From an uncultured bacterium (GTDB taxonomy: Bacteria; DAOPZR01), in contig CAZFBR010000001.1 in the NCBI GenBank assembly GCA_964517215.1, forward strand, positions 24,907 to 88,906: DNA of 64,000 bases, in the 5' to 3' direction. Shown piece by piece: positions 388-3,173 of this stretch. The first letter of the stretch is position 1. Each line of letters begins with the position of its first letter. Made by a program: the position numbers and the translations under genes. The notes beneath the pieces were generated by a model. It searched no databases. It was not told the DNA's origin and saw only the letters and a list, made by a program, of their open reading frames with translations.

Positions 388-1108
388 ACGATGCCGGAGC
401 GCGGGTCCGCAGTCAGGTTCATCCCGGAGAATGCCCAGAAGCGCGGCCATTCCCTGCCGGCGCTGGGATATTTGCGCTCCAGCGCGTTCGGCAATTCCAT
501 GCCGGGCAAGTTGCGCAGCCGGTCGCGTTCAAACCGGCGCCGCACGTTCTGCAGATGGCGCTCCCAGTCGGGCCGCAGCGATTCCGGCAGTACGGTCTGC
601 CGGTCCTTGTTCCCCTTGCCGGCGCGCATTGTGAGCACGCCGCGGTCGAAATCAACATCCGTGATGCGCAGCAACAGGCACTCCCGCAGTTGCAGTCCGC
701 ACCCGTAAATCATCCGTGCCATCAGCGCGGACATGCGGGGCATGCGCGTGGTTATCCTGCCGATTTCCGCATGCGTCAGCACCACCGGCAGTCGCCGCCG
801 CTCCGGTGCGCGCACTGGAACCGTTTAGGTCGGTTGGATTGCGGCCGAGGCAGTGGCACAGGAAGAACAGCAGGGCATTGAAGGCCTGGTTCTGGGTTTT
901 CGCAGACACCTGGCGTTCTCCTGCGATAAAAGACAGGTAATTGCGCACATCGGCGGAAGTCACTCCCTGCGGCGGCCGCTCATTGTGCCAGTGCCGGAAC
1001 TGCCGCAGGTAGGCGAGGCAGGTTCTCCGTCTGCGGCGACAACTGCCTGATGCGGATGATACGCCGCATTTCCGCGACGACGGCATCCCAGCGCAGCACA
1101 TCCGCCAT
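388..1108 (-). pseudogene. intI: Integron integrase (IntI-type tyrosine recombinase) remnant: at least two frameshifts, C-terminally truncated (ends after ...DPRSGIVRR; no HxxR/Tyr catalytic box)
   Basis: Reverse-strand translation in three frames gives an N-terminal segment (RRIIRIRQLSPQTE), a SAM-like core-binding segment (AYLRQFRHWHNERPPQGVTSADVRNYLSFIAGERQVSAKTQNQAFNALLFF), then a catalytic-domain segment (RLPVVLTHAEIGRI...LQLRECLLLRITDVDFDRGVLTMRAGKGNKDRQTVLPESLRPDWERHLQNV...[38 protein letters not shown]). The ALERKYP...WPxFW block is the insertion specific to integron integrases. Confidence 0.7.
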
Positions 1109-1572
1109 CGACGGTACGGGGACCGATTCGGCGGCAGTGCGGTCTGCTGCCGGCGCGGAGGGCTGGCTGGCACGGTAATAGAGAAACAGGCGCACGGTTT
1201 CCCCCTGCCTGTTTTACCTGCCATGGTGCCTTGATGCGTCCAAGTTCATCAAGGAATTGCTGCAGTTCCTGCGGGGCGTTGCCGCTGGCGGCAGGGACGT
1301 GGCGATACCGCAGGAACAAGTCGATCCAGTATTGATAGAATCTCAACTTCTTGTCAGGAACATGGTGGACTGTGAGGTAATTACCTACTGCGGCTTGTTC
1401 ATCTGGTATCAGTGCTTGTCCCATAGTTATTCCCCTTTTTTGTGGATCAACCCTATACGGGTCTAATATACGGGCGCTGCATGATTTTCACCTCCGTTCA
1501 ATATTATCCTCCCACTGCCATAACATCCTTTCCAGCAAATAATAACAGTATCTATAACATTTCATTAACCTA

Positions 1573-1601
1573 TTGACATTCAACCCACCCAGTGGTACAA
1601 T
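1573..1601 (+). promoter_or_regulatory. Consensus sigma70-type promoter TTGACA-17bp-TACAAT (Pc-like cassette promoter candidate)
   Basis: TTGACA at 1573-1578, 17-nt spacer, TACAAT at 1596-1601; about 40-70 bp upstream of the first cassette ORF and divergent from the intI remnant. Confidence 0.5.
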
Positions 1602-1637
1602 CTAAAAATACGCTGTTATTCTACGGTTCTGTACAAT

Positions 1638-1964
1638 ATGAATGTTAGGCAGTGGATAGAGATAGTGATGACTGCGGATGAAAAGATGGAATGGCCAATT
1701 TGGAAATGCACAGCATTGACCGTCATGTTGTGTGGTGCTCCGGTCTTTGCGTCACCTTTGGGGTTCTCAATAATATCGGTTTTGATTTGGATGCTGCTGA
1801 TTATTATCTATGCCGGAATATTAAAAGTATTTGGTTCTAGTTTTGTGATAGAAGGCGCGATCATCGTACTTGTTATAGCGACTCTTGTTTTTGCGGGCGC
1901 GAAATATTTTACAAATAACCTTCAAGAACAACCCGCGCAACAAGAGATGACAAGCAATGCCTAA
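1638..1964 (+). CDS. Small integral membrane protein (3 predicted TM helices), integron-cassette-like; alternative start at 1668
   Basis: ORF in an AT-rich region; hydrophobic segments (LTVMLCGAPVFASPLGF, ISVLIWMLLIIIYAGIL, AIIVLVIATLVFAGA); its stop codon TAA lies inside the RYYYAAC box of the following attC-like repeat. Confidence 0.5.
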   Translation: MNVRQWIEIVMTADEKMEWPIWKCTALTVMLCGAPVFASPLGFSIISVLIWMLLIIIYAGILKVFGSSFVIEGAIIVLVIATLVFAGAKYFTNNLQEQPAQQEMTSNA

Positions 1965-2024
1965 CTTCGCGCCGCACCACGTTGGCGAAAGACGCGCCGA
2001 CGCGGTGAGCGCTATTCGTTGGCA
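1959..2024 (+). repeat. attC-like recombination site 1 (imperfect palindrome GCCTAAC...GTTGGCA)
   Basis: Begins GCCTAAC (RYYYAAC inverse core), ends GTTGGCA (core-like), internal imperfect dyad; about 80% identical in its ends to the second site at 2673-2736 (shared AACTTCGCG...GAGCGCT-N-TCGTTGGC). Confidence 0.5.
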
Positions 2025-2037
2025 TCCAAGAAATCAC

Positions 2038-2066
2038 TTGACATATAACGTTATACGGTATATAAT
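2038..2066 (+). promoter_or_regulatory. Consensus sigma70-type promoter TTGACA-17bp-TATAAT upstream of higB
   Basis: TTGACA 2038-2043, 17-nt spacer, TATAAT 2061-2066; ATG of higB at 2073. Confidence 0.55.
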
Positions 2067-2072
2067 GGAATT

Positions 2073-2360
2073 ATGATAGAGGATTTCCGGTGCAAAGAAA
2101 CCGAAAGGATCTTTCGGCGCGAGTATTCGCGGAAGTTGCCTGCTGGTATTCAGCGGGTTGCTTTGCGAAAATTACGAATGCTGAATCGGAGTTCGACCAT
2201 CGAAGACCTCCGCGTTCCTCCGGGGAACCGGTTAGAAGCCCTTTCCGGCAATCGGAAAGGCGAACACAGCATTCGAATAAATGATCAATGGCGTATTTGC
2301 TTTGTTTGGCGGAATGGTGACGCCCACGCCGTAGAGATCGTGGATTATCACAGGGGGTGA
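2073..2360 (+). CDS. higB: HigB-family toxin (RelE/ParE superfamily, plasmid maintenance system killer protein)
   Basis: 95 aa; LRVPPGNRLEALSGNRKGEHSIRINDQWRICFVWRNGDAHAVEIVDYH matches the HigB_toxin family signature; precedes the antitoxin with a 3-nt gap. Confidence 0.85.
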   Translation: MIEDFRCKETERIFRREYSRKLPAGIQRVALRKLRMLNRSSTIEDLRVPPGNRLEALSGNRKGEHSIRINDQWRICFVWRNGDAHAVEIVDYHRG

Positions 2361-2363
2361 ACT

Positions 2364-2660
2364 ATGAAAAAGATTCCGGTTGTACATCCAGGCGAGATAC
2401 TAAACGAGGAGTTTCTCAAGCCTCTGAACATCAGCCAAAACCAACTCGGCAAAGGACTCGGTGTATCCGCCCGAAGAATCAATGAAATCATCCACGGCAA
2501 ACGCGCCATCACAGCGGATACCGCACTAAGGCTATCTAGGTATTTTGGCAATTCCGCTAGTTTTTGGCTGGGTCTGCAAATGGACTACGAGCTCGATATG
2601 GCCGATGATGCCCTCGCCTCACGTATCAACAGGGAAGTCCAGCGCCTGAAGGTCGCATGA
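2364..2660 (+). CDS. higA: HigA-family antitoxin (XRE-type HTH)
   Basis: 98 aa; PGEILNEEFLKPLNISQNQLGKGLGVSARRINEIIHGKRAITADTALRLSRYFGNSASFWLGLQMDYEL is the canonical HigA HTH. Confidence 0.85.
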   Translation: MKKIPVVHPGEILNEEFLKPLNISQNQLGKGLGVSARRINEIIHGKRAITADTALRLSRYFGNSASFWLGLQMDYELDMADDALASRINREVQRLKVA

Positions 2661-2672
2661 CGACACAGCGGT

Positions 2673-2736
2673 GCCAACTTCGCGTTGCGGCGCTTCGCCG
2701 CTGGCGCGGATCAACGCAGAGCGCTCATCGTTGGCC
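2673..2736 (+). repeat. attC-like recombination site 2 (GCCAAC...GTTGGCC), paralog of site 1
   Basis: Starts 13 bp after the higA stop; GCCAACTTCGCG...GAGCGCTCATCGTTGGCC; dyad ends GCCAAC/GTTGGC. Confidence 0.5.
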
Positions 2737-2957
2737 GTATGAAGACGACAATTAGATTATGAGATAAAATGAAGAATTGATGAATTCGGAAATACGGGCA
2801 TTCTTACATCGTACGCGCGAGGCAAGTGGCTTCCGGACAAAAACGGAAAGGCGGAAATCGCCAGGTTGCGGCAGCATGCTCACTCGACCCTGCAAAAGAG
2901 TAAAAGGATAAACACAGTACCGCATCCCTTACGCACGGATCACAGAAAGCTCATCTG

Positions 2958-2986
2958 TTGACGCAATGTAAAAACTGTGATAAAAT
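2958..2986 (+). promoter_or_regulatory. Strong sigma70-type promoter TTGACG-17bp-TAAAAT upstream of tRNA-Cys
   Basis: TTGACG 2958-2963, 17-nt spacer, TAAAAT 2981-2986; tRNA starts at 3073. Confidence 0.45.
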
Positions 2987-3072
2987 CAATGATTGTACGG
3001 GTCGTGGTGTCGCTGCCCGGGCCGCTGGTCGGCCGGCGGGCGGCGGCGGTTTATCCCGCGACAGCGTAACGA

Positions 3073-3148
3073 GGCGGCGTAGCCAAGTGGCTAAGGCGAC
3101 GGTTTGCAAAACCGTTATTCACCGGTTCAACTCCGGTCGCCGCCTCCA
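3073..3148 (+). tRNA. tRNA-Cys (GCA), CCA encoded
   Basis: 76 nt; 7-bp acceptor stem GGCGGCG/CGCCGCC, anticodon stem ACGGT/ACCGT with loop TTGCAAA (anticodon GCA), T-arm ACCGG-TTCAACT-CCGGT. Confidence 0.85.
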
Positions 3149-3173
3149 TTTTTTGCAAGGAGTTTCCCAACTC

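What the first reader, a model, noticed from the sequence alone, without database searches (positions are those of the whole stretch)
388..3150. Degenerate chromosomal integron: IntI remnant, Pc-like promoter, two attC-bounded cassettes (membrane protein; higBA) next to tRNA-Cys
The reverse-strand translation reconstructs an integron integrase, including the IntI-specific [19 protein letters not shown] insertion, but it needs at least two frame changes and stops before the catalytic HxxR...Y box, so the recombinase is dead. A consensus TTGACA-17-TACAAT promoter sits divergent from it. Two gene units follow, each terminated by a related ~65-bp imperfect palindrome that starts with an RYYYAAC-type box and ends with a GTTGGC[A/C] box. 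The second unit is a higB-higA toxin-antitoxin pair with its own consensus promoter, which is how chromosomal integrons typically stabilise their arrays. The region is clearly AT-richer than the surrounding ~68% GC genome. Integron remnants in this kind of high-GC environmental lineage are seldom annotated.
Basis: partly seen in the sequence, partly recalled or inferred. Interest (0 to 1): 0.75.

Follow-up and report, generated by a model that had tools for sequence, protein, structure and literature searches.

The report
Dead integron between two tRNA genes
This is the decayed remnant of a chromosomal integron (a bacterial gene-capture device): a broken integrase gene, its promoter, and two captured gene cassettes, one of them a toxin-antitoxin pair, wedged between two tRNA genes of an uncultured bacterium. 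It is a real but ordinary example of a well-known kind.

Summary
The observation and the interpretation both hold. On the minus strand, 381-1424 is an integron-integrase pseudogene (TIGR02249 E 5e-61, against about 1e-13 for XerC/D). It has three frameshifts, the catalytic Arg replaced by Gln, and the last ~80 codons (HxxR, Tyr) deleted. Three independent assemblies carry the same lesions.

A TTGACA-17-TACAAT promoter faces two cassettes. Both end in genuine attC sites (1959-2024 and 2672-2736). An attC covariance model built only from other integrons ranks attC1 first in the 64-kb window. A pattern scan of metagenomes found the same attC family in real cassette arrays, and a model built from those arrays scores attC2 at 68.6 bits and attC1 at 37.9 bits, with nothing else above 15 bits.

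The cassette junction boxes interlock exactly. GTTAGGC at 1644 complements the R'' box of attC1, and the R' box of attC1 complements the R'' box of attC2. Cassette 2 is higBA with its own consensus promoter.

New here: the ~3.15-kb block is an insertion into the 11-12-nt spacer that joins tRNA-Leu to tRNA-Cys in two relatives. Its attC-less tail carries a strong promoter 87 nt upstream of tRNA-Cys. Integrons with a dead integrase are common, so interest is modest.

The parts
15..356 (+). Glycine-zipper lipoprotein gene (113 aa). It lies inside the inserted block, abutting the truncated 3' end of intI. It is not an integron component.
   Evidence: PF13488 E 8e-7 and NF053611 E 5e-8. Absent from this locus in the relatives L084 and L087.
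381..1424 (-). intI pseudogene. It has frameshifts near 1202-1205, 1025-1026 and 816. The Gln codon at 690-692 replaces the catalytic Arg (R135 of VchIntIA). The gene is truncated after DPRSGIVRR, so the HxxR box and the Tyr nucleophile are missing.
   Evidence: The lesions are identical in L003 (99.97% identity over 6714 nt, no gaps) and L166 (100% over 497-2051).
1573..1601 (+). Pc-like promoter TTGACA-17-TACAAT with a TG extended -10. It faces the cassettes and ends 43 nt upstream of the attI crossover.
   Evidence: 11 of 12 consensus positions.
1644..1650 (+). Putative attI recombination box G|TTAGGC. It is the exact complement of the R'' box of attC1.
   Evidence: Sequence checked. The same chain rule is seen in real arrays.
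1645..2018 (+). Cassette 1. It encodes a hydrophobic protein of unknown function (ORF 1668-1964, 98 aa; the ORF listing ORF of 108 aa starts at ATG 1638, which lies in attI).
   Evidence: No Pfam or NCBIfam match. There are 21 distant relatives among 1.84e9 representatives, and the alignments begin at residues 3-7 of the 98-aa form.
1959..2024 (+). attC1: R'' GCCTAAC, then TTC, then GCGC/CG/CACCACGT ... ACGCGGTG/A/GCGC, then TATTC, then R' GTTGGCA.
   Evidence: Model R1 (independent of the window): 18.8 bits, top hit in the window, E 0.046. Model R2: 37.9 bits, E 1e-7. DNA fold z-score -2.5. Pair counts.
2019..2730 (+). Cassette 2. It carries its own promoter TTGACA-17-TATAAT (2038-2066), higB (2073-2360) and higA (2364-2660).
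   Evidence: A higBA homologue also lies on the cassette side of the Nitrospinae integron locus L047.
2672..2736 (+). attC2: R'' TGCCAAC ... R' GTTGGCC. Two of the nine L-box pairs are weakened relative to the family consensus.
   Evidence: Model R2: 68.6 bits, E 7e-16. Model R1: only 6.2 bits. Pair counts.
2731..3072 (+). Tail with no attC. It may be a truncated third cassette or other inserted DNA. It carries the promoter TTGACG-17-TAAAAT (2958-2986) and a GC-rich leader that runs into tRNA-Cys.
   Evidence: No attC by R1 or R2. No Pfam hit. No similarity to any fetched locus. Promoter.
3073..3148 (+). tRNA-Cys(GCA), the right-hand boundary of the insertion. The left boundary is the 3' end of tRNA-Leu(GAG), 79 nt to the left of window position 1.

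Best explanation
The region is the relic of a chromosomal integron.

Shown:
- The integrase gene is dead several times over. It has three frameshifts, Gln in place of the first catalytic Arg, and a deletion that removes the HxxR box and the Tyr nucleophile.
- Two cassettes remain, each bounded by an attC site. These sites belong to a family that also forms cassette arrays in metagenome contigs.
- The junction boxes interlock in the way that serial attI x attC insertion produces.
- The ~3.15-kb block sits in the 11-12-nt spacer that joins tRNA-Leu(GAG) to tRNA-Cys(GCA) in two relatives.

Inferred:
- The resident enzyme can no longer excise or insert cassettes, so the array is frozen.
- Pc (1573-1601) can still transcribe cassette 1, a 98-aa hydrophobic protein.
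- The higBA cassette is expressed from its own consensus promoter, as toxin-antitoxin cassettes generally are. It would act as an addiction module that penalises loss of the locus.
- The promoter in the tail (2958-2986), or read-through from Pc or the higBA promoter, now supplies transcription of tRNA-Cys, which the insertion cut off from tRNA-Leu.
For: IntI identity. TIGR02249 E 4.9e-61 covering profile positions 2-234 of 315, against XerC/D at about 1e-13. The remnant aligns to residues 8-239 of the 320 of VchIntIA 2a3v, including the IntI-specific insertion. It is 67% and 64% identical to the intact IntIs P0001 and P0002.

Lesions. Frame map. All six aligned relatives have Arg where the remnant has Gln, and that position corresponds to R135 of 2a3v. 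The same sequence occurs in three assemblies.

attC sites.
- Model R1 was built from 39 attCs of 15 other integrons (its structure is 87.7% paired). It places attC1 first in the window with exact ends.
- A metagenome scan found the same core in contigs where R1 detects 18 sites arranged as one-strand arrays.
- Model R2, built from those sites, gives 68.6 and 37.9 bits against at most 14.9 bits elsewhere in 64 kb.
- In the family alignment the L helices are 96.3% paired, against 20-39% for all pairs when the partners are slid.

Chain rule. Exact 7-mer complements at 1644/1959 and 2018/2672.

Toxin-antitoxin pair.; PMC13108822 for TA cassettes carrying their own promoters.

Insertion..
Against: - attC2 fails the generic model R1 (6.2 bits), and two of its nine L-box pairs are weakened.
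- R2's source contigs were retrieved with a pattern taken from the window. Its high scores are therefore partly by construction. The independent evidence is that R1 recognises arrays in those contigs.
- No attI model exists. The attI assignment rests on the crossover box alone.
- No expression data are available, so every promoter is only a consensus match.
- The scan covered only 64 kb of the genome plus 10 kb to its left. A live intI elsewhere cannot be excluded.
- The direction of the event (insertion here, or deletion in the relatives) rests on only two relatives.
Confidence: 0.9

Rival explanations
1. The array is still mobile in trans. It would be a cassette cluster (CALIN-like) whose two cassettes can be excised or exchanged by a functional IntI encoded elsewhere in the same genome or community.
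For: attC1 keeps a near-perfect bottom-strand fold: 8 Watson-Crick pairs plus 1 G.T in the L helices. The same attC family is active in arrays in metagenome contigs. Two other assemblies break at this spot: L166 ends 27 nt after attC1, and the NCBI contig starts inside cassette 1. That could reflect variation in cassette content within the population. Cury et al. (PMC4889954) raise this possibility for CALINs.
Against: No second intI or attC was found in the 64-kb window or in the 10 kb to its left. Contig breaks at repeats are also ordinary assembly behaviour. attC2 is weakened.
Confidence: 0.2
2. The elements are not an integron. They would be a degraded phage-type or XerC/D-type tyrosine recombinase next to chance palindromes or REP-like repeats, with an ordinary chromosomal higBA pair.
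For: Weaker matches to XerA, XerC and XerD exist. GC-rich DNA yields many stable palindromes: about 20 false candidates came from a simple energy and R-box screen.
Against: The IntI score exceeds the Xer scores by about 150 bits, and the IntI-specific insertion is present. The repeats occur only twice, both at cassette ends. An independent attC model hits attC1. The same family forms arrays elsewhere. The junction boxes interlock exactly.
Confidence: 0.02
3. The frameshifts are sequencing or assembly errors, and the integrase is really intact.
For: The source is a metagenome-assembled genome. Homopolymer errors can mimic frameshifts.
Against: Three independent assemblies agree base for base across all three frameshift sites. 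Even after frame correction, the catalytic Arg is Gln. The C-terminal ~80 codons are absent, with an unrelated gene ending 25 nt away.
Confidence: 0.02

Closest known systems
Sedentary chromosomal integrons with an inactivated intI ('pseudo-integrons'), for example in Xanthomonas; surveyed by Nemergut et al. 2008 (PMC2426708)
   Same: A chromosomal location, with intI disabled by frameshifts and deletion while the cassettes and attC sites persist. [quoted passage not shown]
   Different: The host is an unclassified deep-branching MAG, not a proteobacterium. The array is tiny (two cassettes). The block lies between two tRNA genes. The IntI belongs to the ~410-aa clade with an N-terminal extension.
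CALIN (cluster of attC sites lacking an integrase) with a neighbouring intI pseudogene; IntegronFinder classification, Cury et al. 2016 (PMC4889954)
   Same: At least two attC sites without a functional IntI, and a recognisable intI pseudogene within 10 kb. Cury et al. found this for 15 of 279 CALINs.
   Different: Here the attI/Pc platform is still attached, so the integron decayed in place. It is not a displaced cassette cluster.
Toxin-antitoxin cassettes of large chromosomal integrons such as the Vibrio cholerae superintegron; Richard et al. 2024 (PMC13108822)
   Same: A type II TA pair packaged as a cassette with its own promoter and its own attC.
   Different: A stabilising role is only inferred here. 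With only one other cassette there is little array to stabilise. The gene order is higB then higA.
Mobile class 1-3 integrons
   Same: Divergent intI, a Pc promoter facing the cassettes, a G|TTRRRY crossover and an attC architecture of R''-L''...L'-R'.
   Different: Only 71% nucleotide identity to intI3, over 128 nt. No plasmid or transposon context and no resistance genes. Pc lies in the intergenic region, not inside intI.

Membership tests
Integron integrase (IntI; TIGR02249) | Best match to the IntI profile rather than to XerC/D or phage integrases | tested here: met
   TIGR02249 scores 206.8 bits (E 4.9e-61) against 53 bits for XerC and 49 bits for XerD. The score is below the 265-bit full-length cut-off only because profile positions 235-315 are deleted.
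Integron integrase (IntI; TIGR02249) | The IntI-specific additional segment (ALExKYPxA...W.W.FP...DP) between the patch regions | tested here: met
   [36 protein letters not shown] aligns to residues 203-239 of VchIntIA 2a3v and to all six intact relatives.
Integron integrase (IntI; TIGR02249) | An intact catalytic set (Arg, Lys, His-x-x-Arg, His/Trp, Tyr) in one open reading frame | tested here: not met
   There are three frameshifts. The R135 equivalent is Gln. Everything after residue 239 of 2a3v is absent. This is therefore a pseudogene of the family, not a working member.
attC recombination site | Recognition by a covariance model trained on attC sites from other integrons | tested here: inconclusive
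   attC1 scores 18.8 bits, is the top hit in 64 kb, matches over its full length with exact ends, and has E 0.046. attC2 scores 6.2 bits, which is not significant. The IntegronFinder model itself was not available, and Rfam has no attC family.
attC recombination site | Membership of a repeat family that forms one-strand cassette arrays elsewhere | tested here: met
   Contigs L105, L146, L147, L143 and L150 carry 2-5 such sites each (four of these contigs by R1, L150 by the pattern scan), spaced roughly 200-900 nt apart. Model R2, built from them, scores attC2 at 68.6 bits and attC1 at 37.9 bits.
attC recombination site | R''/R' (AAC...GTT) and L''/L' pairing, with an unpaired spacer and an extra base on the '' side | tested here: met
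   The architecture is R'' - TTC - GCGC - 2-nt bulge - helix ... helix - 1-nt bulge - GCGC - 5 nt - R'. In the family alignment 90.8% of pair positions are paired overall and 96.3% in the L helices, against 20-39% for slid controls. attC1 has a G.T pair on the bottom strand that is an A.C mismatch on the top strand.
Integron cassette array | The R' box of each site complements the R'' box of the next, because G|TTRRRY is split at insertion | tested here: met
   GTTAGGC (1644) pairs with GCCTAAC (1959), and GTTGGCA (2018) pairs with TGCCAAC (2672). Both are exact. The same rule holds in arrays L035, L057, L075, L146 and L105. My own estimates of the chance probability are about 0.013 and about 1/256.
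Integron platform | An attI site and a Pc promoter between intI and the first cassette | tested here: inconclusive
   A consensus promoter lies at 1573-1601 and a crossover box at 1644. No attI model exists, and no inverted L box was seen. Function is not testable with these tools.
HigBA type II toxin-antitoxin | A HigB-like RelE-fold toxin gene directly upstream of a HigA HTH antitoxin gene | tested here: met
   PF05015 E 1.4e-20. TIGR02607 scores 110 bits against a 47.7-bit cut-off. The two genes are 3 nt apart. Toxicity and neutralisation were not tested.
REP / dispersed palindromic repeats | Many copies scattered through intergenic regions of the genome | tested here: not met
   Only two copies occur in 64 kb plus the 10 kb to the left, both at cassette ends. 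The whole genome was not available.

The most novel reading that the evidence does not exclude
The relic has been co-opted. By inserting into the 11-12-nt spacer of a tRNA-Leu/tRNA-Cys pair, it cut tRNA-Cys off from its upstream tRNA. Transcription of tRNA-Cys would then depend on DNA brought in with the integron, either the TTGACG-17-TAAAAT promoter in the attC-less tail or read-through from the Pc and higBA promoters. Together with the higBA addiction module, this would make the dead integron hard to lose. It would be a documented case of integron debris rewiring the expression of a core tRNA in a deep-branching uncultured lineage.
Probability: 0.3. Interest if true: 0.45.

Novelty: new member of a known kind. 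Interest (0 to 1): 0.3.

Why it matters
The relic records that integrons with the long, N-terminally extended IntI type, and a distinct attC family (TTCGCG...GAGCGCTnATCGTTGG), have operated in an unclassified deep-branching bacterium found in JGI and other public metagenome assemblies. It also captures the end state of integron decay with the platform still attached. The public NCBI proteins seen for this stretch are named only hypothetical protein, RelE/ParE-family toxin and HigA antitoxin. That makes it a useful test case for tools that must flag pseudo-integrons in high-GC genomes, where energy-based attC screens drown in false positives. It does not change how integrons are understood.

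Tried and rejected
- Rfam scan of 1-4200: only the two tRNAs, plus antisense tRNA artefacts labelled Plastid-ycf2. Rfam has no attC family.
- A home-made attC screen (AAC...GTT ends, R-box complementarity, constrained DNA folding energy) gave about 20 equally good hits across the high-GC window and missed attC1. I abandoned it as non-specific for this window. It did work on the lower-GC cassette sides of other integrons, where it was used only to pick seed sites.
- RNAalifold on the 39-seed alignment predicted no structure. I wrote the structure by hand and checked it by pair counts.
- The generic model R1 does not detect attC2.
- The contigs of the two closest intact IntIs (L001, L002) end 160 and 40 nt upstream of intI, so they gave no related attI or array.
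- A metagenome scan with the neighbouring 195-aa protein found nothing. Synteny was recovered instead from four protein homologues.
- No intI was found on the contigs that carry the attC family.
- The plasmid database holds no related element. The only matches were weak ones to higBA and intI3.
- The small ORFs in the tail and the cassette-1 protein have no Pfam match.
- A LexA box and an attI L box were looked for by eye in 1425-1650 and not seen.
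Full report
**Observation**

The first 4.2 kb were read directly, with ORFs, tRNAs and composition.

- GC is 0.62-0.76 in the flanks and in the genes downstream. 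It falls to 0.40-0.54 between about 1350 and 3000.
- tRNA-Cys(GCA) is at 3073-3148 and tRNA-Met at 3776-3851.
- The promoter scan finds TTGACA-17-TACAAT (with TG) at 1573-1601, TTGACA-17-TATAAT at 2038-2066 and TTGACG-17-TAAAAT (with TG) at 2958-2986, all on the plus strand. That is 6 promoter-like sites in 4.2 kb against 2.0 +/- 1.6 in shuffles.

**The integrase remnant**

Three-frame translation of the minus strand and tblastn with the closest intact relatives give four collinear pieces:

| Piece | Coordinates | Frame |
|---|---|---|
| 1 | 1424-1206 | -3 |
| 2 | 1201-1025 | -1 |
| 3 | 1026-817 | -2 |
| 4 | 815-381 | -3 |

This places three frameshifts near 1202-1205, 1025-1026 and 816.

- The spliced 348-aa product matches NCBIfam TIGR02249 (integron integrase) at E 4.9e-61 over profile positions 2-234 of 315. 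XerC and XerD reach only about 1e-13 to 1e-14.
- Pfam sees the SAM-like domain and the first half of the catalytic domain.
- The best solved structure is VchIntIA (2a3v), E 9e-38. It aligns over residues 8-239 of 320, including the IntI-specific ALExKYP...DP segment.
- In the 5.8-billion-protein collection the nearest intact proteins are 67% and 64% identical (P0001, P0002). The 120 best relatives listed, where a source names them, are called integron integrases.
- In the alignment, similarity ends at DPRSGIVRR. The position that is Arg in all six relatives (R135 of 2a3v) is Gln here, at codon 690-692.
- The HxxR box, the second His and the Tyr nucleophile are gone. The stop codon of an unrelated glycine-zipper lipoprotein gene (15-356) lies 25 nt beyond the last aligned base.
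- The lesions are not assembly errors. A JGI contig (L003) is 99.97% identical over 6714 nt without gaps, and another (L166) is 100% identical over 497-2051.

**The two palindromes are attC sites**

The elements at 1959-2024 and 2672-2736 share AACTTCGCG at the left end and GAGCGCTnnTCGTTGGC at the right end. Neither half occurs elsewhere in the 64-kb window beyond chance. Both strands fold better than shuffles, with z about -2.4 for three of the four folds. That alone means little in this genome. A simple energy and R-box screen produced about 20 comparable candidates in the window.

I therefore built an attC covariance model that owes nothing to the window.

1. One scan of 185,579 species genomes with the IntI alignment returned 80 integron loci.
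2. From the cassette sides of 15 of them I took 39 sites of 57-80 nt lying in arrays and aligned them.
3. I wrote the R-box and L-box pairing by hand, because RNAalifold found nothing.
4. I verified the pairing: 87.7% of pair positions are paired, 94.9% in the L helix, against 25-44% for slid controls.
5. I built model R1.

Searched without filters over the whole window, R1's best hit is 1959-2024 on the plus strand. It matches over its full length with exactly the predicted ends, at 18.8 bits and E 0.046. attC2 scores only 6.2 bits.

**The attC family elsewhere**

A metagenome scan for AACTTCGCG-N28-58-GCGCTnnTCGTTGG returned mostly coding-sequence coincidences. It also returned about ten contigs with 58-60-nt cores clearly related to the two window sites.

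- In those contigs the independent model R1 finds 18 sites arranged on one strand, roughly 200-900 nt apart. L105 has five, L147 four, L146 three and L143 two. These are real cassette arrays.
- Model R2, built from these 18 sites, scores attC2 at 68.6 bits (E 7e-16) and attC1 at 37.9 bits (E 1e-7). The next best hit in the window scores 14.9 bits.
- R2 finds nothing else in the 10 kb to the left of the window.
- R2's source contigs were found with a window-derived pattern, so its scores are partly by construction. The independent point is that R1 recognises arrays there.

The family architecture is R''(7) - TTC - GCGC - 2-nt bulge on the '' side - helix of 5 or more bp ... helix - 1-nt bulge - GCGC - 5 nt - R'(7).

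- In the 15-sequence alignment, 96.3% of L-helix pair positions are paired and three pairs covary. For all pairs together the figure is 90.8%, against 20-39% when the partners are slid.
- attC1 has one A.C mismatch on the top strand that is a G.T pair on the bottom strand, the strand integrases use.
- attC2 has two of its nine L pairs weakened.

**Cassette junction logic**

In real arrays the R' box of one site is the exact complement of the R'' box of the next, because the crossover splits G|TTRRRY (seen in L035, L057, L075, L146 and L105). The window obeys this rule twice.

- GTTAGGC at 1644-1650 complements GCCTAAC, the R'' box of attC1.
- GTTGGCA, the R' box of attC1, complements TGCCAAC, the R'' box of attC2.

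This places the attI crossover at 1644/1645, which is 43 nt downstream of Pc. It defines cassette 1 as 1645-2018 and cassette 2 as 2019-2730. After attC2 (R' box GTTGGCC) no matching GGCCAAC or attC follows. Positions 2731-3072 are a tail with no attC, no Pfam match and no similarity to any fetched locus.

**Cassette contents**

Cassette 1 encodes a hydrophobic protein with no family match. An exhaustive search of 1.84 billion representatives finds 21 distant relatives, the best at 44% identity. Their alignments begin at residues 3-7 of the 98-aa form. The likely start is therefore ATG 1668, inside the cassette, rather than ATG 1638, which lies in attI but is in frame.

Cassette 2 is higB (PF05015, E 1.4e-20) followed 3 nt later by higA (TIGR02607, 110 bits). 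A perfect consensus promoter begins 20 nt into the cassette. TA cassettes with their own promoters are a known feature of chromosomal integrons (PMC13108822). A higBA homologue also sits on the cassette side of the Nitrospinae integron locus L047.

**Genomic context**

The neighbouring 195-aa protein (3174-3761) has only four homologues in the collection.

- Two relatives, at 72% and 75% identity (L084 and L087), carry tRNA-Leu(GAG) - 11/12 nt - tRNA-Cys(GCA) - homologue, and L084 shows panB-panC upstream.
- In this genome tRNA-Leu ends 79 nt to the left of window position 1.
- About 3.15 kb (window -79 to 3072) therefore occupies that spacer. It contains the glycine-zipper gene, the intI remnant, Pc/attI, the two cassettes and the tail.
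- Fragments of the old spacer appear to remain at both junctions (ATTTT on the left, AAC.AG on the right).
- A strain that is 98% identical shares the leader upstream of tRNA-Cys.

I infer an insertion that separated tRNA-Cys from tRNA-Leu. The promoter at 2958-2986, 87 nt upstream of tRNA-Cys, is a candidate replacement promoter. This is inference only.

**Host**

The proteins are identical to those of an NCBI 'MAG TPA: bacterium' (HNW91305-HNW91310). Its ClpC is at most 56% identical to any named organism, with a mix of Bacillota, Armatimonadota and Elusimicrobia among the top hits. The lineage is therefore unclassified and deep-branching. The plasmid collection holds no related element.

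**Comparison with what is known, and verdict**

Integrons with a dead integrase are common. [quoted passage not shown] IntegronFinder's authors describe attC clusters with neighbouring intI pseudogenes (PMC4889954). This locus is a clear, small example that retains its platform.

What I add is the third frameshift, the Arg-to-Gln change, the attC family and its arrays elsewhere, the exact junction logic, the corrected cassette-1 start, the attC-less tail, and the insertion between two tRNA genes. I rate it a new member of a known kind, with interest 0.3.

Noticed in passing
window -79..3072 (left end in L003 around 6795, minus orientation): The whole block is an insertion into the 11-12-nt spacer that joins tRNA-Leu(GAG) and tRNA-Cys(GCA) in relatives L084 and L087. 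A TTGACG-17-TAAAAT promoter (2958-2986) lies 87 nt upstream of the now isolated tRNA-Cys.
   Followed up: partly
window -48..-30 and 3002-3020; also 257-274 and 3021-3037: A 19-nt imperfect direct repeat (17 of 19; TCATGCTGTCGCTGCCCGG / TCGTGGTGTCGCTGCCCGG) lies near both ends of the inserted block. Immediately next to the right-hand copy is an 18-nt inverted match (94% complementary) to a stretch inside the glycine-zipper gene. This could be chance in GC-rich DNA or a trace of how the block was assembled.
   Followed up: partly
window 1090-1424 (-); IntI residues 1-115: This IntI and most of its 120 closest relatives are about 410 aa long, with an N-terminal extension of about 100 aa and no Pfam match. 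A profile-profile comparison shows that the extension resembles the SAM-like core-binding domain that follows it (hhalign probability 97%, E 6e-11 over 43 columns). It looks like a partial domain duplication.
   Followed up: partly
L002 1-4490 and L202 2258-4902: In two different metagenome integrons the intI reading frame diverges right after the HTLRH catalytic box (P0002 ...HTLRHNAELRIMP, P0004 ...HTLRHYAESRPMP). In L002 three further tyrosine recombinase genes follow (412, 315 and 332 aa). In L202 a 411-aa one and the start of another ORF follow before the contig ends. This looks like a recombinase-in-trio element inserting repeatedly at the same conserved intI site.
   Followed up: partly
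window 1638-1650: An ATG at 1638 lies in the attI region, 6 nt before the crossover, and is in frame with the cassette-1 ORF. The 108-aa ORF listed by the ORF listing, which is also on record in public gene-call sets, is therefore an attI-cassette fusion. Homologue alignments favour the internal ATG at 1668.
   Followed up: partly
L166 (= window 497-2051); NCBI contig starting in cassette 1: Two other assemblies of the same organism break at or just after cassette 1 and attC1. This could be ordinary assembly fragmentation, or a hint of cassette-content variation in the population.
   Followed up: no
window 3174-3761: The 195-aa protein between tRNA-Cys and tRNA-Met has no family match and only four homologues among 5.8 billion clusters, all in the same tRNA-flanked position.
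   Followed up: partly
whole window; ClpC at 52505-55012: The host is an unclassified 'bacterium' MAG. Apart from one unnamed sequence at 80%, its ClpC is at most 56% identical to anything else listed, with mixed phyla among the top hits.
   Followed up: partly
window 3074-3145 and 3776-3849, minus strand: The Rfam family Plastid-ycf2 5'UTR matches the antisense strand of both tRNA genes, below its gathering score. The model appears to capture an antisense tRNA and the hits are artefacts.
   Followed up: no
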